From Actinomycetes bacterium (GTDB lineage Bacteria; Actinomycetota; Acidimicrobiia; Acidimicrobiales; RAAP-2), in assembly GCA_021848365.1 (NCBI GenBank), contig JAJZUS010000001.1, positions 540,608 to 604,607 of the forward strand: a stretch of 64,000 nucleotides of DNA, in the 5' to 3' direction. A program made the position numbers and the translations under genes. The stretch's first letter is position 1. The number at the start of each line of letters is the position of its first letter. Under the pieces are notes generated by a model, which was not told where the DNA came from, ran no database searches, and worked only from the letters and a program-made list of their open reading frames with translations. This document shows positions 2,476 through 12,191 of the stretch, one piece after another.

Positions 2476-2497
2476 ATGTGCTACAATTGACGCACAT
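2476..2497 (+). promoter_or_regulatory. vapBC operator palindrome containing the -10 box
   Basis: ATGTGC-TACAATTGAC-GCACAT; TACAAT at 2482-2487; overlaps the antitoxin ATG at 2496. Confidence 0.65.
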
Positions 2498-2768
2498 GAA
2501 GACGATCGGCATTCGCGAGCTCCAGCAGAACGCCTCGGCGGCTCTGCGCCGCGTGGCCGCGGGCGAGTCGCTCGGCGTCACGGACCGTGGTCGTCTGGTG
2601 GCGGTCTTGAGTGCTCCGTCGATGGCGACGGGGGCGGCCGCGCTCGTCGCCGCGGGCCGGGTCCGGCCCGCGCGACGTCCCCCGACGTCGCTGCCCGAAC
2701 CCACCGTGGTCGCCGAGTCGACCCAGGCGGTGCTCGAGGAGTTGCGTCGCGAACGCGGTGAGGCGTGA
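2496..2768 (+). CDS. vapB: Phd/YefM-family antitoxin (VapB)
   Basis: MKTIGIRELQQNASAALRRVAAGESLGVTDRGRLVA fits the Phd fold; GTGA overlap with the PIN toxin; start moved to ATG 2496. Confidence 0.9.
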   Translation: MKTIGIRELQQNASAALRRVAAGESLGVTDRGRLVAVLSAPSMATGAAALVAAGRVRPARRPPTSLPEPTVVAESTQAVLEELRRERGEA

Positions 2769-3151
2769 TCTGGTACCTCGACACGTCGGCCTTCTTGAAG
2801 GTCGTCGTCGCCGAGGCGGAGTCGCCCGCCCTGCGACGGTGGTTCGCGCGCCAGGACGAGGTCTGGTCGTCCTCGCTCCTGCAGACCGAGGCGCTTCGCG
2901 CGGGCGCTCGGCTCGGTCTCGCGAGTGACGTGGTCGAGGAGGCCCTCGAGACGATCACGCTCGTCCTCCCGACGGCGTCGACCTTCTACGTGGCGGGACA
3001 GCTGGGACCGAGCACCCTGCGCTCGCTCGACGCGCTGCACCTGGCGACGGCGCTCGAGCTGGGGTCCGACCTCGCCGGCGTCGTGACGTACGACGAGCGA
3101 CTGGTGGAGGCCGCGAGCCTCGCGTCGGTCGCGGTGCTCGCGCCACGCTGA
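2765..3151 (+). CDS. vapC: VapC PIN-domain ribonuclease toxin
   Basis: YLDTSAFLK, EA, LRSLDALHLATA and TYDERL supply the acidic PIN residues; 128 aa. Confidence 0.93.
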   Translation: MIWYLDTSAFLKVVVAEAESPALRRWFARQDEVWSSSLLQTEALRAGARLGLASDVVEEALETITLVLPTASTFYVAGQLGPSTLRSLDALHLATALELGSDLAGVVTYDERLVEAASLASVAVLAPR

Positions 3152-3482: not shown

Positions 3483-4898
3483 TCAGCGACTGACGATGAG
3501 GATCGTCTCGAGGGAGGAATCGCTGCAGTAGGCGATGCGGCACGTCGTCGCGGCGGCGGCGATCGCGTCGAGGGCCTCGCGGGTCACGAGCTCGCCCGGG
3601 GCGAGGAGGGGGACCCCGGGGGGGTAGGGGCAGAACTGCTCGGCGCTGACCTCGCCGATCGCCTCGCGCAGGGGGACCCGGCGCCGCTCGCGCAGGAAGG
3701 CCTCGCGCGGGGTCATGGCGACCTGGGGCTCGACCCGCCAGATCGAGAGGGGCGAGGGACGGCGGGCCTCGCCCCGGTGGGCCTCGATGAGGTCGCCCAG
3801 GAGGTCGGCGAAGGCGACGATCCACTCTGGCTCGTCGGCGACCGTCGTGGTGAGGATCAGGGTGTCGTGGTCGGCCGACTCGGGGCCGTGGCCCATCCGC
3901 CAGAGCGCCTCGCCGACGGCGACGCCGTCGGCGCCGGTGCCCGGGAGGACGAGGGTCAACTTCGTCGGGTCGACGGGACACCCGGCCGTCTCGTCGTTCA
4001 CGACGACGAGTCCCGGCACGCGCGCGAGGCGCTGTCGGGCCGTGGCGACGGCCTCGATCACGACCCCGAGGCGACGCCCGGCGTCCTCCTCGAGGGCCGC
4101 GCGCGCGCCGTCGATCGAGGCCATCAGGGTTCCCGAGGGCGAGGTCGTCGAGGTGAGGTCGACCCAGCGATCGAGGGTCGAGCGGGGGATGATCCCGGTG
4201 CGCATGCTGACGACGGCCGTCTGGGTGTAGCCGAGGAGGGCCTTGTGGACGCTCGTCACCGAGAAGTCGGCTCCCTGGGCGATCGCCCCGCGACCGGGCA
4301 GGAAGTCGAGGTGGGCCCCCCAGGCCTGGTCGACGACGAGGGGCTCGCCGTGCTCGCGCGCGACGGCGGCGAGCGCGGGGACGTCGGAGATCGTGCCGAC
4401 GTAGGAGGGGGAGGTGACGAAGAAGCCGTTCACTCGCTCCGGGAGGTCGGCGAGGGAGCGGGGCGACATCCCGATCGGGATGTTGAGCTCGGGGTGGATC
4501 TCGGGGTAGACCCAGAGCGGTCGGGCGCCGATGAGGACGAGCCCGGCCTGGGTGCTGCGGTGCGAGGTGCGGTCGATGGCGATCGGGGTGTCCTCGTCGC
4601 CCACGGTCGCGAGGGCCGCGATGTTGCCCTGGGAGGAGCCCCCAACGAGGAATCGGCTGTGCTCGGCCCCGACGGCGCGGGCCCAGAGCGCCTCGGCCTG
4701 CCCGAGGTAGTCGTTCGAGTAGGCGTTGTCGTCGACGCCACCCTGGAGAGGGATGTCGTCACGCACCGTGTCGCCGACGAGCTCGTGGGCCCACCCGGGC
4801 GCGTCGTCGAGGTAGCGGAGCTTGTGCCCCGGTACCTGCATCGGGCGACGCCGCTCGGCGCGCGCTCGGCGCCAGGCGTCCAGCAGTGGCTTCTCCAT
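3483..4898 (-). CDS. PLP-dependent Orn/Lys/Arg decarboxylase family protein
   Basis: MQVPGHK, FLVGGSSQGN, DRTSHRS, VDQAWGAH, SVHK (PLP lysine), C-terminal CPYPPGVPLLAPGE; AGAAGGA RBS. Confidence 0.92.
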   Translation of the reverse strand: MEKPLLDAWRRARAERRRPMQVPGHKLRYLDDAPGWAHELVGDTVRDDIPLQGGVDDNAYSNDYLGQAEALWARAVGAEHSRFLVGGSSQGNIAALATVGDEDTPIAIDRTSHRSTQAGLVLIGARPLWVYPEIHPELNIPIGMSPRSLADLPERVNGFFVTSPSYVGTISDVPALAAVAREHGEPLVVDQAWGAHLDFLPGRGAIAQGADFSVTSVHKALLGYTQTAVVSMRTGIIPRSTLDRWVDLTSTTSPSGTLMASIDGARAALEEDAGRRLGVVIEAVATARQRLARVPGLVVVNDETAGCPVDPTKLTLVLPGTGADGVAVGEALWRMGHGPESADHDTLILTTTVADEPEWIVAFADLLGDLIEAHRGEARRPSPLSIWRVEPQVAMTPREAFLRERRRVPLREAIGEVSAEQFCPYPPGVPLLAPGELVTREALDAIAAAATTCRIAYCSDSSLETILIVSR

Positions 4899-5933: not shown

Positions 5934-6725
5934 CTAGAGCGCCGACACGGTCGTCGTGAGGTCGCTCCGTCGCACCCGCAGGATCGAGTCGGGCGGCAGG
6001 GTCTCCCACTCGCCGGGGAGACCCGAGTGGGCCGCGACGACGCCGCCGGGCCGCTCCGACCAACTGAGGTCGAAGTACCGGTCGAGGTGGGCCGGCGGGA
6101 TGTTCTCGGGCGCGCCGCAGGACTCCTCGAGATCGTCCGTCGGCATCGGCATCCCGGTGTGGGAGTGGACGACGCAGAGCTCGTCGTCGGTGAGGACGAT
6201 GGCGTTGAGACTGGCCACGGGGGCGAACGTGCGAATCGTCGCGACGGTGGCCCGCAAGGCGTCGGCGAGGTCGGGGTGGTGGGTCAGGGACTGGAGGAGG
6301 AGGAGGAAGTAGAGCTCGGAGTCGGTGTCACCGCGCCGCAGCGCCCGCTGCTCGACGTCGAGCAGCGGCTCGATCTCGTCGTGCTCGGCGACCGAGCCGT
6401 TGTGGGCGAAGGCGATCGGTCCGCGGGGGTGGGCGACGAAGGGATGGGTGTTCTCCTCGCGCACCGGCAGGCCGAGGGAGGCCCAGCGCAGGTGCACGAG
6501 GCCGGCGTGAGATCGATCACCGCGCAGCGCCGCGAGGTGGTCGTCATCGCGCGCCGCGCGAGGGGAGCGGTAGACGGCGACCTCGCCGGGCGAGTCCGAC
6601 ACCGCGTAGCCCCAGCCGTCACCGTGGAGTCGCGACAGGTCGACGAACTCGTCGAAGGCGGCGTCCCCGAGGACCCCGGTGGCGCCGGACGGCGTCGTGG
6701 ACGCGAAGCACATCAGCCGACACAT
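5934..6725 (-). CDS. Class II glutamine amidotransferase (Ntn hydrolase, YafJ/EgtC-like)
   Basis: N-terminal MCRL (Cys2 nucleophile), HGDGWG, HLRWAS, ENTHPF, FAHNG, GDTDSE; GGGAGG RBS. Confidence 0.9.
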   Translation of the reverse strand: MCRLMCFASTTPSGATGVLGDAAFDEFVDLSRLHGDGWGYAVSDSPGEVAVYRSPRAARDDDHLAALRGDRSHAGLVHLRWASLGLPVREENTHPFVAHPRGPIAFAHNGSVAEHDEIEPLLDVEQRALRRGDTDSELYFLLLLQSLTHHPDLADALRATVATIRTFAPVASLNAIVLTDDELCVVHSHTGMPMPTDDLEESCGAPENIPPAHLDRYFDLSWSERPGGVVAAHSGLPGEWETLPPDSILRVRRSDLTTTVSAL

Positions 6726-6746: not shown

Positions 6747-6799
6747 TGTTTCGTTTCATGCGATGCTATCGTCCGCGACAATGAATTCTAACGTTCATT
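6747..6799. promoter_or_regulatory. Divergent promoter region with a candidate operator
   Basis: Locally AT-rich; AATGAA-N8-TTCATT at 6780-6799 enclosing TAACGT; an extra GTTTCAT half-site near 6753-6759. Confidence 0.5.
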
Positions 6800-6849
6800 T
6801 GACGCGATGGCTCTCCCGACCGGGAGACGAGCTCGTCGACTACACGCCC

Positions 6850-8190
6850 GTGGCCGACGAGGCCATGGTCAGCGCCCTCGAGGGGGAACTGCGCGGCCGG
6901 GGCGTACGGACCGTGCGGGGCACCTTCGTCGACTCCTCGGGGGTGCTGCGCGCGAAGCAGGTGCCCCTCTCGCGGCTCGGGGCCTTCAACCGCTCCGGAC
7001 TGGGCGCGTCGAACTCCTGGGCCGTCTTCGGCGCCGACGACCTACTCTGCATGACCCCGCGCTTCTCGGCCGTCGGCGACATGCGGCTGCGCGCCGACCT
7101 CGACACCGTGGTCGACCTCGGCGAGGGGGTGGCGTGGACGCCGCTCAGCCTCGTCGACCAGGACGGCGTCGCCCTCGACTACTGCGCCCGCACCGTCCTG
7201 CGGCGTCAGATCCGCGCGGCGAACGAGGTCGGGCTCTCCGTCGTCGCCGCGACCGAGGTCGAGTTCACCGTCTACGACGCCGAGCGCCGCCCCCTCGGGG
7301 GTGCCTCCTACGGGTGGACGCGACTCAGCGGCTACGAGCCCTTCGTCGACGCGCTGTCCCGCTCCCTCGAGAGCGCCGGGGTGCCGCTCGAGCAGTTGCA
7401 CGGAGAGTACGGCCCGGGCCAGTTCGAGCTCTCGGTGGCTCCGGCGAACCCCCTCGCCGCGGCCGACCTGAACGTGCTGGTGCGCGTCGTGATCTCGCGG
7501 GTCGCGCGCTCCTTCGGCTACGCCGTCTCCTTCTCGCCCAAGCCCTTCGCCGACGCCATCGGCAACGGGGCCCACTCCCACCTCTCCTTTCGCCGCGAGG
7601 GTCGTCCCCTCCTCTCGGGGGGCGACGGCCCCCACGGCCTCACCCCCGAGGGGGCGAGCATCGTCGCGGCCTACGTCCGCTACCTCCCCGAGATGGTCGG
7701 CGTCCTCGCGTCGTCGGCCCTCTCGAGCACGCGCCTGCAGCCCTCGACCTGGTCGGGGGCGTACGCGTGCTGGGGTCTCGAGAACCGCGAGGCCGCGGTG
7801 CGGCTCTGCGCCGCGACGCGGGGCAACCCCCACGGCGCCAACGTCGAGGTCAAGTGCGTCGACCCGGCGGCCAACGTCTACGCCGCCTACGCGGCGCTCG
7901 TCGGGGTCGCTCGTCGCGCGCTCGAGTTCCCGGAAGAACTCGGACCCGAGACGACCGTCGACCCGGCGGACCTCAGCCCGGCCGAGCGCGACGCGAGCGG
8001 CATCACCCTCGTGGGAGCCGATCACGCGGCGGTGCTCGACCGGTTCGAGTCCTCGAGCGCGATGCTCGAGGTCCTCGGTGAGGCCTTCGTCGAGACGACC
8101 CTCGCCGTGCGGCGTCACGAGGCCGACCTCGTCGCCGCCGAGGGCATCGCGGCCGTCGCCGAGCGCCTGACCTTCGCGTGGTCGGCCTAG
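6850..8190 (+). CDS. glnA3: GlnA3-type glutamine synthetase-like gamma-glutamyl-(poly)amine ligase
   Basis: GLGAS, EVEF, EQLHGEYGPGQFE, GNGAHSHLS, WGLENREAAVR, NVEVK..DPAAN and the AWSA terminus match M. tuberculosis GlnA3 as I recall it. Start uncertain (6781, 6850 or 6865). Confidence 0.85.
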   Translation: MADEAMVSALEGELRGRGVRTVRGTFVDSSGVLRAKQVPLSRLGAFNRSGLGASNSWAVFGADDLLCMTPRFSAVGDMRLRADLDTVVDLGEGVAWTPLSLVDQDGVALDYCARTVLRRQIRAANEVGLSVVAATEVEFTVYDAERRPLGGASYGWTRLSGYEPFVDALSRSLESAGVPLEQLHGEYGPGQFELSVAPANPLAAADLNVLVRVVISRVARSFGYAVSFSPKPFADAIGNGAHSHLSFRREGRPLLSGGDGPHGLTPEGASIVAAYVRYLPEMVGVLASSALSSTRLQPSTWSGAYACWGLENREAAVRLCAATRGNPHGANVEVKCVDPAANVYAAYAALVGVARRALEFPEELGPETTVDPADLSPAERDASGITLVGADHAAVLDRFESSSAMLEVLGEAFVETTLAVRRHEADLVAAEGIAAVAERLTFAWSA

Positions 8191-8238
8191 CCGGAGATTT
8201 CGTCGCAGTACCGAGAAACAACTAGGGGGGAAGGAAGC

Positions 8239-9744
8239 ATGTCGACAGATTCGGCACCACCGAGGGTGGGTAAGCGGAAGCTGAAGCTGTGGGGGGCGGT
8301 CGCCATCTCACTGGGCATCGTCGGGCCGACGCTGGCGATGGCGGGCAACGGACAGGGGACGGTCGCGGTCGTGGGCAAGTCGGTGCCGCTCGTCTTCGTC
8401 TTTGGCGCCATTGGCATCGCGCTCATCGGCCACAGCTTCATCCGCCTGACGCAGCGCTACTCGCACGCCGGCAGTTCCTACGCCCTCGTCGGGCTCACGA
8501 TCGGCAAGCGGGCGGGCTTCCTCGCCGGGTTCGCGGTGATGATGACCTACGTCTTCTTCGCCATCTGCACACTGGGCGCCGTGGCGAGCTTCCTCAACGC
8601 CTTCCTGGCGGCGGCCGACAGCGGAGCGGCGCACCCGCCGCACGTGCCTTGGGTCCTGGTCGCCCTGATCGCCGTCGTCGTCGGGCTCTTCTTCAATACT
8701 CGCGACATCCAGACCGTGGCGCGCGCGCTGCTCGCCATCGAGGGACTCGGCATCGTCTGCATGACGATCCTCACGATCGTCATCATCTCGAAGGGCGGCG
8801 CCCACTCGACCGGCGTCGACTGGAGCACCTTCTCGCTGAAGGGCAATAGCTTCTCGACGATCATGGGCGCCGTCGTGGCGGCCTTCCTCTCGTGGGCCGG
8901 GTTCGAGGGCTGTGCGGCGCTCGGGGAGGAGACCGACGACCCCAAGCGCAACATCCCGCGGGCCCTGGCCTGGGCCGTGGCGCTCACCGCGGTGCTCTTC
9001 GTGATGGTGATGTTCGCCCAGACCATCGGCTACGGCACCAACGCCGCGGGTCTGCACACCTTCGCCACCCAGGGCAACTCGCTGACGACCCTCGGAAAGA
9101 CCTACATCGGGACCTGGTTCTCCCTCGTCATCTCGTTCGCGGCGGTGATCTCGGCCTTCGCCTGCCACCTGGCCTCGGTGGCGACGGCCGGTCGACTCAT
9201 GTGGGTCTTCAGCCGTGACGGTCTCGGCCCGAAGGGCTGGTCGCGTCTCGACTCTCGCCACTCCCAGCCGGTCAACGCCATCTTCACCGTGGCCGCCGTG
9301 ACGGCCGTCCTGGCGATCCTCGGGGGCATCACCAAGCACCCGGTCGTCGGCACCGGCGACCCGGCGCTCGACTTCTACTTCTACTACGCCACCATCGGCG
9401 CGATGGTGCTGATGTTCGCCTACTTCATGATGGAGCTCGGCACGATCAAGCACCTGCTCGTCGAGCGTCGCGAGAAGGCGGGCGAGGTCGTCTTCCCGAT
9501 CATCGGGGCCCTCTTGATGCTGGCCGTCTTCTACTACAACGTGAAGGGCCAGACCCAGTGGACGGCGGCGCCCTTCATCGCCTTCATGATCCTCGGGGTG
9601 GGCCTGCTCATCACCCTCTTCCTGCCCGGACTCGCGGACAAGGTCGCGGCGGGGCTCTCCTCCGAGCCCGAGGAGGCCGGCCCGGTCGGCAAGGACCTCC
9701 TCGCCCCGGGCATCGAGGCCCACCTCCCGGCGGGGCAGGACTAG
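8239..9744 (+). CDS. APC-family amino acid/polyamine permease
   Basis: About 12 hydrophobic segments; HAGSSY, SWAGFEGCAALGEETDDPKRNIPRA; GGAAGGA RBS. Confidence 0.93.
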   Translation: MSTDSAPPRVGKRKLKLWGAVAISLGIVGPTLAMAGNGQGTVAVVGKSVPLVFVFGAIGIALIGHSFIRLTQRYSHAGSSYALVGLTIGKRAGFLAGFAVMMTYVFFAICTLGAVASFLNAFLAAADSGAAHPPHVPWVLVALIAVVVGLFFNTRDIQTVARALLAIEGLGIVCMTILTIVIISKGGAHSTGVDWSTFSLKGNSFSTIMGAVVAAFLSWAGFEGCAALGEETDDPKRNIPRALAWAVALTAVLFVMVMFAQTIGYGTNAAGLHTFATQGNSLTTLGKTYIGTWFSLVISFAAVISAFACHLASVATAGRLMWVFSRDGLGPKGWSRLDSRHSQPVNAIFTVAAVTAVLAILGGITKHPVVGTGDPALDFYFYYATIGAMVLMFAYFMMELGTIKHLLVERREKAGEVVFPIIGALLMLAVFYYNVKGQTQWTAAPFIAFMILGVGLLITLFLPGLADKVAAGLSSEPEEAGPVGKDLLAPGIEAHLPAGQD

Positions 9745-9747
9745 TCC

Positions 9748-11073
9748 GTGCAGCCCGACCTCTCGTCACTGCCGGCCGAGGCGGCCGACCTCTATCGACG
9801 CGACCTGAAGGCGGTCGCCGGGATCGAGAAGCTGCGCTTCTTCCCGCTGGCCGTCGTCTCCGGCGAGGGCTCCTGGCTCGTCGAGGCGGGTGGACGTCGC
9901 GTGCTTGACCTCACCTCGACCTGGACGGCCTCGGGTCTCGGCTACGGTCACCCCGCCGTCGTCGAGGCGCTCACCCGGGCGGTGCAGGCACCGCCCGGCT
10001 CGGGCGGGCTCTCGGCGGTCCACCCCGACTCGGTCGGCCTGGCCGAGGACCTGCTCGCCCTCACCCCGGGCGAGGGCGAGCGACGCGTCTACCTGGGCCA
10101 CGCCGGCTCCGACGCGTGCGACGTCGCGCTGCGCGCCGTGCGGCTCGCCACCGGCAAGCGACGGATCATCGCCTTCGAGCACTCCTACCACGGCGGCGTG
10201 GGCGTCGCCCTCGGCGCGTCGGGGGTGCACGTCGAGGCCGGCTCGGTCGCGGCCGACCCGGACGTCGTCTTCGTCCCCTACCCGAACCCCTACCGGGAGG
10301 ATGCGCTGACTGCCCTCGCCGCCACTTTCGCCGCGATCGACGAGGCGCTGGCGGGGGGCGACGTGGCGGCCCTCATCGTCGAGCCCTTCCTCGCCGACGG
10401 GGGCATGGTGGTGCCCCCCGAGGGCTTCCTGCGCGGCTGCGCCGAGCGGGCCCGCGCGGCCGGTGTGCCCCTCATCGTCGATGAGGTCAAGGTCGGCCTC
10501 GGTCGCTCGGGGATGCTGCACGCCTTCCAGATCGAGGGCATCGTCCCCGACGTGGTCTGCTTCGGCAAGGTCCTCGGCGGGGGCCTGCCCCTCTCGGCCT
10601 GCGTCGGTCCCGCGTGGATTCTCGATGGTCCCCCGGCGGCGGCCCTCTTGACGACGGCCGGCAACCCCATCTGCTCCGCCGTCGGACGGGCCGTCCTGCG
10701 CACGCTCGTCGACGACGACCTGCCCGGTCGAGCGCGCGCCGCGGGCGAGCGCCTGCGGGCCGGGCTCCGGGCGGCCGATCTGCCCCAGGTCGGCGACGTG
10801 CGCGGGCACGGGCTCTCGATCGGGTGCGAGCTGGTGGAGGACCGGGCGAGCAAGACCCCGGCGCGGACCCTCGCGGCGAAGGTCGTCTACCGGGCCTTCG
10901 AGCTCGGGGCGGCCGTCTTCTACGTCGGGGGCAACACCCTCGAGATCACGCCGCCGCTCATCATCACCGACGAGGAGGTCGACCACGGCGTCGAGATCCT
11001 CGTCACGGCGATCCGCGACGCCGCGGCCGGCCGGGTGTCCGACGCGCTCGTCGCGCCCTACGCGGGGTGGTGA
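9748..11073 (+). CDS. Class III PLP enzyme resembling alpha-amino-epsilon-caprolactam / amino acid amide racemase
   Basis: LYRRD..KLRFFPLA, GLGYGHP, EPFLADGG, DEVKVGLGRSG, FGKVLGGG, C-terminal YAGW. These match Achromobacter obae ACL racemase as recalled. Confidence 0.75.
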   Translation: MQPDLSSLPAEAADLYRRDLKAVAGIEKLRFFPLAVVSGEGSWLVEAGGRRVLDLTSTWTASGLGYGHPAVVEALTRAVQAPPGSGGLSAVHPDSVGLAEDLLALTPGEGERRVYLGHAGSDACDVALRAVRLATGKRRIIAFEHSYHGGVGVALGASGVHVEAGSVAADPDVVFVPYPNPYREDALTALAATFAAIDEALAGGDVAALIVEPFLADGGMVVPPEGFLRGCAERARAAGVPLIVDEVKVGLGRSGMLHAFQIEGIVPDVVCFGKVLGGGLPLSACVGPAWILDGPPAAALLTTAGNPICSAVGRAVLRTLVDDDLPGRARAAGERLRAGLRAADLPQVGDVRGHGLSIGCELVEDRASKTPARTLAAKVVYRAFELGAAVFYVGGNTLEITPPLIITDEEVDHGVEILVTAIRDAAAGRVSDALVAPYAGW

Positions 11074-12191
11074 GCGTGGGCCTCGCCGAGGAGATCGCCT
11101 CGATCCCCCTGCTCGATCACCACGTCCACGGCGCCCTCAAGGATCCGCTCGACCAGGCGGCGCTCGAGTCGACGATCACCGAGTCGGACCGACCACCGGC
11201 GCCCGGGGTCTCGAGCTTCGACTCGCCGGTCGGCTTCGCACTGCTGCGCTTCTGCGCGCCCCTGCTCGACCTCGATGGCGAGGTCAGCCGGGCGGGCTAC
11301 GTGGAGCGGCGCCTCGAGCTCGGGCCCGAGGAGGTCAACCGCCGCTTGCTGCGGGCGAGCGGAATCGCGACCTACCTCGTCGACACCGGCTTCAACTCCG
11401 ACGGCCTCCTCGACGTCGCCGAGATGGCGAGCGCGGGCGCGGCGGAGACCCACGAGGTGGTGCGGCTGGAGGCCATCGCCCAGCGCCTCCTCACGGAGGA
11501 GATCCCTTCGGCGGAGTTCGCCCACGCGCTCGCCGCTGAGCTCGAGCAGTCCCGCACGCGCGGCGTCGTCGGAACGAAGAGCGTGCTGGCCTACCGGGCC
11601 GGCTTCGACATCGATACGACCCGTCCCGACGACGCGGCACTGCGCGCGGCCCTCGATCGCCAGCGAGCCCGCACCACGCGAATCGACGACCCGGTCCTGC
11701 TCGCCGAGCTGCTCTGGGCGGGGATCGATCTCGGGCTGCCCCTGCAGATCCACACCGGATTCGGCGACACCGACCTGACGCTGCACCGCTCGAACCCGAG
11801 CCTGCTCACCCCGTTCCTGCGTGCGAGCGAAGCCTCGGGCACGCCCGTCGTCCTGCTCCACTGCTACCCGTATCACCGCGAGGCGGCCTACCTCGCCCAG
11901 ATGTTTCCCCACGTCTACTTCGACGTGGGGGAGGCCCTCAACTACGCCGGGGCCCAGAGCCGCCAGATCGTCGCCGAGTCCTTCGCCCTGGCGCCCTTCG
12001 CAAAGCAGCTCTTCTCGTCCGACGCCTGGGGGCCGGCCGAGCTCCACTACCTGGGTGCCCTCCTGTGGCGCCGGGCCATGACGCGCGTGCTCGGGGAGTG
12101 GGTCGACGACGGCGACTGGAGCGAGGCCCAGGCCCACCGGGTCGTCGCGATGGTGGCGAGCGAGAACGCTCGCACCGTCTACCGGATCTGA
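11070..12191 (+). CDS. Amidohydrolase_2 family protein (FluG N-terminal / Rv1879-like)
   Basis: DHHVHG, KSVLAYRAG, LQIHTGFGD, LLHCYPY, FSSDAWG; GTGA overlap with the upstream stop codon. Confidence 0.88.
   Translation: MSVGLAEEIASIPLLDHHVHGALKDPLDQAALESTITESDRPPAPGVSSFDSPVGFALLRFCAPLLDLDGEVSRAGYVERRLELGPEEVNRRLLRASGIATYLVDTGFNSDGLLDVAEMASAGAAETHEVVRLEAIAQRLLTEEIPSAEFAHALAAELEQSRTRGVVGTKSVLAYRAGFDIDTTRPDDAALRAALDRQRARTTRIDDPVLLAELLWAGIDLGLPLQIHTGFGDTDLTLHRSNPSLLTPFLRASEASGTPVVLLHCYPYHREAAYLAQMFPHVYFDVGEALNYAGAQSRQIVAESFALAPFAKQLFSSDAWGPAELHYLGALLWRRAMTRVLGEWVDDGDWSEAQAHRVVAMVASENARTVYRI

What the first reader, a model, noticed from the sequence alone, without database searches (positions are those of the whole stretch)
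5934..6725. Class II (Ntn) amidotransferase as a candidate gamma-glutamyl-amine hydrolase
Established: the E. coli Puu pathway removes the glutamyl group with a class I enzyme (PuuD), while EgtC, a class II Ntn hydrolase, deglutamylates an ergothioneine precursor. Seen in sequence: an intact Cys2 Ntn hydrolase with no synthase partner, transcribed divergently from glnA3; no egt genes are nearby. Inference: it supplies the deglutamylation step for the GlnA3 route.
Basis: inference. Interest (0 to 1): 0.55.

Follow-up and report, generated by a model that had tools for sequence, protein, structure and literature searches.

The report
Glutamate-removing enzyme in conserved amine cluster
This intact enzyme most likely removes a glutamate tag that a neighbouring enzyme attaches, in a widespread but unstudied bacterial gene set that also holds an amino-acid-amide racemase; the chemistry is known, but the natural substrate is not and is probably not a simple polyamine.

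Summary
Observation confirmed: 5934-6725(-) is an intact stand-alone class II (Ntn) amidotransferase-family protein (Cys2, glutamyl pocket kept; closest fold EgtC) head-to-head with a GlnA3/PA5508-type ligase. No egtB, egtD or GCS2 gene was found in the 96.7%-complete genome. 69 of 80 homologous loci have the ligase nearby, in several gene orders. But it is not the general GlnA3 partner: none of 20 sampled ligase+amidohydrolase loci carry it, and in one genus 114/151 genomes have the FluG-type amidohydrolase but only 19 this enzyme. It tracks a larger RpiR-linked module: ligase, transporter, aminocaprolactam/amino-acid-amide racemase homologue, two hydrolases, often a decarboxylase. In racemase-anchored loci it never co-occurs with an N-formylglutamate-amidohydrolase (23 vs 13, both 0); an M20 hydrolase sometimes takes the place. 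This supports deglutamylation (about 65%) but points to a gamma-glutamyl-amino acid rather than gamma-Glu-putrescine or -GABA; the cluster has no oxidase, and a PuuD-family gene lies elsewhere in the genome. No activity was measured. New variant of known gamma-glutamylation routes.

The parts
5934..6725 (-). Stand-alone class II (Ntn) glutamine amidotransferase-family hydrolase, 263 aa; Cys2 nucleophile, Arg80/Trp81/Ser83/His94/Asn109/Gly110/Asp135 pocket
6782..6797 (.). 16-bp imperfect palindrome (TGAAT-N6-GTTCA), probable RpiR operator shared by both arms (inference)
   Evidence: pattern in 62 of 64 divergent GATase-ligase spacers vs 1 of 11 loci without ligase (pattern derived from about 20 of these loci); also in later-fetched loci including Brucella and Shinella upstream of rpiR; 5 sites in the whole genome
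6781..8190 (+). GlnA3/PA5508/FluG-C-type gamma-glutamyl-amine ligase (start codon uncertain; 6781 may be leaderless)
   Evidence: Gln-synt_C; best PDB hit 4HPP; Trp flap and tree
8239..9744 (+). APC-family permease
   Evidence: AA_permease_2; present in 65 of 80 loci
9748..11073 (+). PLP enzyme of the alpha-amino-epsilon-caprolactam / amino-acid-amide racemase (ACLR) family
   Evidence: PDB 5M46, 6GIO, 2ZUK at E 1e-114 to 1e-119 versus 1e-58 for GABA transaminases; Asp217, Lys248, Lys274, Trp59, Trp441 kept
11070..12191 (+). Amidohydro_2 metal hydrolase of the FluG-N / SCO6961 / Rv1879 type
   Evidence: Pfam; only PDB hit 2QPX, E 2.5e-41; PMC6478659
4968..5807 (-). RpiR/MurR-family regulator (HTH_6 + SIS)
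   Evidence: in 65 of 80 loci
3483..4898 (-). Orn/Lys/Arg decarboxylase-family PLP enzyme (accessory)
   Evidence: in 43 of 80 loci, on either arm; replaced by a Pyridoxal_deC enzyme in L266

Best explanation
The protein is the gamma-glutamyl amide hydrolase of a conserved module made of an RpiR regulator, a transporter, a GlnA3/PA5508-type ligase, an ACL/amino-acid-amide racemase and a second amide hydrolase. After Met removal, Cys2 attacks the gamma-amide of a gamma-glutamyl-X held in a conserved glutamyl pocket; the thioester is hydrolysed, releasing X and glutamate (mechanism from family knowledge of EgtC and GlmS; residues seen here). Inferred order: an alpha-amino amide or lactam is imported and racemised, the ligase glutamylates its amine, the amidohydrolase (isochorismatase family in Proteobacteria) opens the amide or lactam, and this enzyme frees the amino acid, which the accessory decarboxylase may turn into an amine. 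Shown: fold, residues, linkage, exchange pattern. Inferred: the reaction (about 65%) and that X is an amino acid such as Lys or Orn rather than a polyamine (about 30% for that detail).
For: Catalytic Cys2, Arg80, His94, Gly110 and Asp135 are invariant in 32 of 32 ligase-linked homologues; they align with the GlmS glutamate-binding motifs. Closest structure is EgtC, a proven deglutamylase (PMC9103826). 69 of 80 homologous loci carry a GS-like ligase, 64 head-to-head; linkage occurs with four separate ligase lineages. Racemase-anchored loci over 9 kb with a ligase: this enzyme only 23, FGase (PF05013) only 13, both 0, neither 9; 4 of the 9 carry an M20 hydrolase (L193 by layout) and 2 are cut off. 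The swap occurs inside two different ligase clades. The FGase family is the predicted gamma-glutamylglycine hydrolase of the GlnA4 route (PMC6529630). Operons of GATase+ligase+racemase without the amidohydrolase exist (L256). A sister clade sits head-to-head with a different gamma-glutamyl ligase, GCS2 (L056, L067, L068, L076). All 15 racemase-bearing genomes of 151 in one genus have the GATase, 14 within about 4 kb.
Against: No activity measured. FGase always comes with an isochorismatase and the GATase mostly with the amidohydrolase, so which replaces which is inferred from chemistry, not from the counts. The FGase role is itself a prediction. Eight of the 13 FGase loci are one Klebsiella-type element and about 55 of the 80 loci are mycobacterial, so counts overstate independence. 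Some members of the same GATase clade have no ligase nearby (L057, L069, L086, L167-L169). Three racemase+ligase+amidohydrolase loci (L242, L243, L249) show none of the three exchangeable hydrolases.
Confidence: 0.65

Rival explanations
1. The FluG-N-type amidohydrolase (11070-12191) removes the glutamyl group, and the class II enzyme cleaves the other amide (the alpha-amide or lactam of the racemase substrate), so it is the counterpart of the isochorismatase rather than of FGase.
For: SCO6961 is proposed as the hydrolase of the S. coelicolor GlnA3 route (PMC5403932, untested). The amidohydrolase accompanies GlnA3-type ligases far more widely than the GATase does. The GATase co-varies with the racemase.
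Against: The glutamate-binding residues are fully kept, as expected for a gamma-glutamyl substrate. Ligase operons with GATase and no amidohydrolase exist (L256). The FluG N-domain is modelled as acting upstream of the ligase (PMC6478659). GCS2-linked sister clade has no racemase.
Confidence: 0.15
2. First reader's narrow version, a sub-case of deglutamylation with another substrate: the decarboxylase makes putrescine or cadaverine, the ligase glutamylates it, oxidation happens in trans, and this enzyme is a class II stand-in for PuuD on gamma-Glu-GABA or gamma-Glu-aminovalerate.
For: An Orn/Lys/Arg decarboxylase is in 43 of 80 loci. S. coelicolor GlnA3 glutamylates polyamines (PMC5403932). 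An aminotransferase plus FAD oxidase pair exists elsewhere in the genome.
Against: Proteobacterial versions keep ligase, racemase and two hydrolases without a decarboxylase. No PuuB- or PuuC-type gene recurs in the cluster. The genome already has a Peptidase_C26 gene. PA5508 is not polyamine-induced and prefers bulky amines (PMC6478659); M. tuberculosis glnA3 is not spermine-induced (10.1101/2023.12.14.571729).
Confidence: 0.15
3. It is a glutaminase subunit that supplies ammonia to a partner in trans, for example to build an amino-acid amide that the racemase then epimerises.
For: Same pocket as GlmS and PurF glutaminase domains, including Trp81.
Against: No synthase recurs in the neighbourhood; the ligase lacks the ammonium-binding glutamate flap; the families that replace it are hydrolases, not ammonia donors.
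Confidence: 0.06
4. It is a general gamma-glutamyl peptidase (EgtC- or Dug3-like salvage) whose position in the cluster is incidental.
For: Unlinked members of the clade exist; no GGT match in the genome.
Against: Linkage is kept through rearrangements and across phyla, with a shared palindrome; no egt or GCS2 genes here; mycobacteria with the cluster keep a separate true EgtC beside egtD.
Confidence: 0.05

Closest known systems
EgtC (ergothioneine biosynthesis amidohydrolase; PDB 4ZFJ; TIGR03442)
   Same: Stand-alone class II Ntn fold, Met-Cys-Arg start, closest solved structure (Z 26.1); probable gamma-glutamyl amide hydrolysis.
   Different: 49 bits against a cut-off of 218.65; 21-26% identity; no egtB or egtD in the genome; linked to a GS-like ligase; separate true EgtC in mycobacteria that carry both.
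E. coli Puu pathway / PuuD (class I, Peptidase_C26)
   Same: Same logic: a GS-like ligase adds glutamate, a hydrolase removes it.
   Different: Unrelated fold; no oxidase or dehydrogenase in the cluster; a racemase and a second hydrolase instead; a C26 gene lies elsewhere in this genome.
GlnA3-amidohydrolase pair (SCO6962/SCO6961, Rv1878/Rv1879, fungal FluG)
   Same: Ligase of the same clade and the same amidohydrolase family (2QPX) are in the cluster.
   Different: Most such pairs lack the GATase, racemase, permease and RpiR; this is an extended version.
PA5508-type operons of Proteobacteria (RpiR, isochorismatase, GS-like, FGase, transporter, ACL racemase), seen here in Brucella anthropi, Shinella, Klebsiella plasmids, Celeribacter
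   Same: RpiR, ligase, racemase and two hydrolases (a transporter in most); matching palindrome in several.
   Different: Hydrolases are FGase plus isochorismatase instead of class II GATase plus Amidohydro_2; no decarboxylase.
YafJ/PA1307 (1TE5) and SPO2029 (3MDN), uncharacterised stand-alone class II GATases
   Same: Pfam GATase_4; His-x-Asp-Gly-Trp-Gly motif shared with 1TE5.
   Different: Distant (E 2e-11 and 2e-18 by profile); their gene context was not examined.

Membership tests
Class II (Ntn) glutamine amidotransferase family | Cys at the mature N-terminus | tested here: met
   Met1-Cys2, no earlier in-frame start, RBS upstream; Cys in 32/32 linked homologues
Class II (Ntn) glutamine amidotransferase family | Ntn four-layer fold | tested here: met
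   Model pLDDT 95; Z 23-26 to EgtC, PurF, GlmS
Class II (Ntn) glutamine amidotransferase family | Glutamyl pocket and oxyanion hole (GlmS Arg73, Thr76, His86, Asn98, Gly99, Asp123; numbering from my own knowledge) | tested here: met
   Arg80, Ser83, His94, Asn109, Gly110, Asp135 align to the 1XFF motifs
Class II (Ntn) glutamine amidotransferase family | Synthase domain or subunit that accepts ammonia (true amidotransferases) | tested here: not met
   263-aa single domain; no recurring synthase neighbour
EgtC | TIGR03442 score over 218.65 | tested here: not met
   49.1 bits
EgtC | egtABD(E) in the cluster or genome | tested here: not met
   No EgtD, EgtB or GCS2 match, genome 96.7% complete
EgtC | Hydrolysis of a gamma-glutamyl amide | not testable with these tools
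   Needs an assay
Puu pathway / PuuD | Class I (Peptidase_C26) fold | tested here: not met
   Class II fold
Puu pathway / PuuD | Clustered oxidase (PuuB) and aldehyde dehydrogenase (PuuC) | tested here: not met
   None in the window cluster or among recurring neighbours
GlnA3/PauA7/FluG-C ligases (neighbour 6781-8190) | GS fold with Trp in place of the Glu flap; clade with mycobacterial-type glnA3 | tested here: met
   named Rv1878 or SCO6962 sequences were not on hand, so orthology rests on unnamed loci
ACL / amino-acid-amide racemases (neighbour 9748-11073) | Asp at the class III Glu position, Lys in the DEVK motif, two Trp, high score to solved ACLRs | tested here: met
   (116-120 of 120 homologues keep each); 5M4D carries Ala at the DEVK lysine
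ACL / amino-acid-amide racemases (neighbour 9748-11073) | Racemase activity | not testable with these tools
   Needs an assay

The most novel reading that the evidence does not exclude
The module is the native pathway of aminocaprolactam racemases: it salvages amino-acid lactams or amides (for example lysine or ornithine lactam) by ATP-driven gamma-glutamylation, ring or amide opening by a FluG-N-type amidohydrolase, and release of the amino acid by this class II hydrolase. That would give natural substrates for ACL racemase, GlnA3/PA5508 and FluG-like proteins at once.
Probability: 0.2. Interest if true: 0.72.

Novelty: new variant of a known kind. Interest (0 to 1): 0.46.

Why it matters
Removing glutamate with a class II Ntn enzyme is known (EgtC), so the enzyme alone is a modest find. 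Its value is as a handle on an uncharacterised module found in Acidimicrobiia, environmental mycobacteria, other Actinomycetota and Proteobacteria. The exchange of three hydrolase families in one position narrows the likely intermediate to an N-glutamyl amino acid and separates the jobs of the two hydrolases. That makes testable the open questions of what GlnA3/FluG-type ligase-amidohydrolase pairs act on (PMC6478659 leaves it unresolved) and what ACL racemases, used as biocatalysts (PMC7431475), do in nature. I found no paper describing this pairing in the open-access library searched; subscription papers were not covered.

Tried and rejected
EgtC identity: rejected. General GlnA3 partner: rejected. 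GABA or polyamine transaminase reading of 9748-11073: disfavoured by score gap and residues. Sigma-70 promoter scan: nothing. GATase search of plasmids: no match. RNA runs: no RNA holder listed, no evidence either way. Tree change counts (9 and 10) are not used: L039 and L036 were mislabelled as unlinked, and backbone support is weak. No complex prediction was run because no binding is claimed. The genus is unnamed; I read it as Mycobacterium from genome sizes and similarity, which is an inference.

Full report
Observation. The ORF at 5934-6725 (minus strand) encodes 263 residues starting Met-Cys-Arg, with a ribosome-binding site and no earlier in-frame start. It passes Pfam GATase_4 and GATase_6 but scores only 49 bits on the EgtC model, whose cut-off is 218.65. 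An AlphaFold model (pLDDT 95) matches EgtC best: Z 26.1, rmsd 2.1 over 214 residues; Foldseek puts EgtC chains in ranks 1-13. PurF and GlmS domains follow closely (Z 24), so the fold gives family, not function. Arg80, Ser83, His94, Asn109, Gly110 and Asp135 align with the GlmS glutamate-binding motifs; Cys2, Arg80, His94, Gly110 and Asp135 are invariant in 32 ligase-linked homologues. The genome (1.96 Mb, 96.7% complete, about 70% GC) has no match to EgtD, EgtB, GCS2, FGase or GGT. Its nearest homologues come from Acidimicrobiia.

Surroundings. Left arm: GATase, RpiR regulator, Orn/Lys/Arg decarboxylase. Right arm: GS-like ligase, APC permease, class III PLP enzyme, Amidohydro_2. The ligase's best solved relative is 4HPP (PA5508) and it has Trp where true GS has the glutamate flap. 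The amidohydrolase matches 2QPX, the model for the FluG N-domain and a relative of SCO6961 (PMC6478659). The PLP enzyme matches aminocaprolactam and amino-acid-amide racemases at E 1e-114 to 1e-119, far above GABA transaminases at 1e-58, and keeps their signature Asp, Lys and Trp residues.

Co-occurrence, forward. Of the 80 closest genomic loci, 69 have the ligase, 64 head-to-head; 65 have RpiR, 65 the permease, 61 the amidohydrolase, 59 the racemase in place, 43 the decarboxylase. About 55 are mycobacterial and not independent, but the link also holds in Blastococcus, Nocardioidaceae, Jatrophihabitans, Microbacteriaceae and Acidimicrobiales, in co-directional as well as divergent orders, and with four separate ligase lineages. 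In the window's own genus, GATase, ligase and racemase occur together in G000 and G212; G210 has a distant GATase alone. Four of the unlinked loci have the GATase head-to-head with a GCS2 gamma-glutamyl ligase instead.

Co-occurrence, reverse. In a phylum-wide draw, 27 amidohydrolase loci were fetched; 20 have a GS-like gene and none has this GATase subfamily. In 151 genomes of one genus (read as Mycobacterium), 114 have the amidohydrolase, 19 the GATase and 15 the racemase; all 15 have the GATase, 14 within about 4 kb. So the enzyme belongs to the extended racemase-type module and is not the standard partner of GlnA3. Two mycobacteria with the cluster keep a true EgtC next to egtD elsewhere.

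Exchange pattern. Racemase homologues in Klebsiella plasmids, Brucella anthropi, Shinella and Celeribacter lie with RpiR, a GS-like ligase, an FGase (PF05013) and an isochorismatase-family hydrolase; the Klebsiella ligase is 46% identical to the window's. Among racemase-anchored loci over 9 kb with a ligase, 23 have the GATase only, 13 FGase only, none both, 9 neither. Of the 9, four carry an M20 hydrolase (one by layout), two are truncated and three show none. Eight FGase loci are one element, leaving about five independent cases. The swap occurs within two separate ligase clades. FGase is the predicted gamma-glutamylglycine hydrolase of the GlnA4 ethanolamine route (PMC6529630; a prediction). 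FGase, M20 aminoacylases and EgtC all act on N-acyl amino acids (own knowledge; EgtC in PMC9103826). Some operons have GATase, ligase and racemase with no amidohydrolase (L256).

Mechanism. Most likely (0.65) the enzyme hydrolyses the gamma-glutamyl amide made by the ligase, through a Cys2 thioester. The racemase implies a substrate without a free alpha-carboxylate, an alpha-amino amide, lactam or ester (PMC7431475, PMC11391342). The simplest order is uptake, racemisation, glutamylation, amide or ring opening by the amidohydrolase or isochorismatase, then deglutamylation to a free amino acid, with optional decarboxylation. Every step of that order is inference. The polyamine version is weaker: proteobacterial copies lack the decarboxylase, no oxidase or dehydrogenase recurs, the genome has a separate C26 hydrolase and two other GS-like genes, PA5508 is not polyamine-induced (PMC6478659), M. 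tuberculosis glnA3 is not spermine-induced (10.1101/2023.12.14.571729) and is most efficient with ethanolamine in vitro (PMC13740247). The main rival (0.15) is that the amidohydrolase deglutamylates, as proposed without test for SCO6961 (PMC5403932), and the GATase cleaves the other amide; the counts cannot exclude this because the hydrolases travel in pairs.

Regulation. A 16-bp palindrome at 6782-6797 fits a pattern found in 62 of 64 divergent spacers and 1 of 11 loci without ligase. The pattern was derived from about 20 of these loci, but it also appears in later-fetched loci, including upstream of rpiR in Brucella and Shinella. It is probably the RpiR operator; binding is untested.

Verdict. 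Real gene, correct family, strong and specific linkage. Deglutamylation is the best reading, limited to the extended module and probably on a gamma-glutamyl amino acid. It works like EgtC and fills the role of PuuD but is a member of neither. New variant of a known kind; interest 0.46. An earlier first-reader note on this window (e1-5189631) had flagged the racemase cluster; I reached that reading before seeing it and tested it here.

Noticed in passing
window 6782-6797: Conserved 16-bp palindrome, probable RpiR operator; an extended -10-like TGCTATCGT just upstream of the ATG at 6781 suggests a leaderless ligase transcript.
   Followed up: partly
L180 3624-10326 (Klebsiella plasmid OW969657) and about 44 Klebsiella plasmid records: A near-identical RpiR/ligase/permease/racemase/FGase/isochorismatase element on Klebsiella and Pluralibacter plasmids, near an arsenic-resistance operon in the one record examined; its racemase is 62% identical to the window's, suggesting cross-phylum transfer.
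   Followed up: partly
L056, L067, L068, L076 (around 6800-8800): A sister clade of the GATase sits head-to-head with a GCS2/YbdK-type ligase in Microbacteriaceae and Nocardioides.
   Followed up: partly
L064 3244-11889, L073, L210: Variant cluster: isochorismatase, SDRs, GS-like ligase, amidohydrolase, GATase, GntR, methylaspartate ammonia-lyase-like enzyme and CoA transferase, without a racemase in L064 and L073.
   Followed up: no
L266 10465-11988: A group II (Pyridoxal_deC) decarboxylase stands where the Orn/Lys/Arg decarboxylase lies in mycobacterial clusters.
   Followed up: no
L081 14174-14902 (G000:C2:138 kb): Peptidase_C26 (PuuD-family) gene directly after the glycine cleavage genes, with no GS-like neighbour.
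   Followed up: partly
L083 6449-9902 (G000:C1:980 kb), L082 5847-7142, L271 7159-9959: Two further GS-like genes, one followed by an aldehyde dehydrogenase and SDR (resembles a glnA4 route), and an omega-aminotransferase plus FAD oxidase pair: separate amine routes in the same genome.
   Followed up: partly
G000:C3:401141-401156: A perfect palindrome of the same pattern elsewhere in the genome; neighbouring genes not examined.
   Followed up: no
window 2478-3151: Short antitoxin-like gene and PIN-domain-like gene (VapBC-type pair by sequence appearance) just beyond the decarboxylase.
   Followed up: no
L034 6618-9658: A mycobacterial locus keeps GATase and RpiR but has lost the ligase arm from the neighbourhood.
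   Followed up: no
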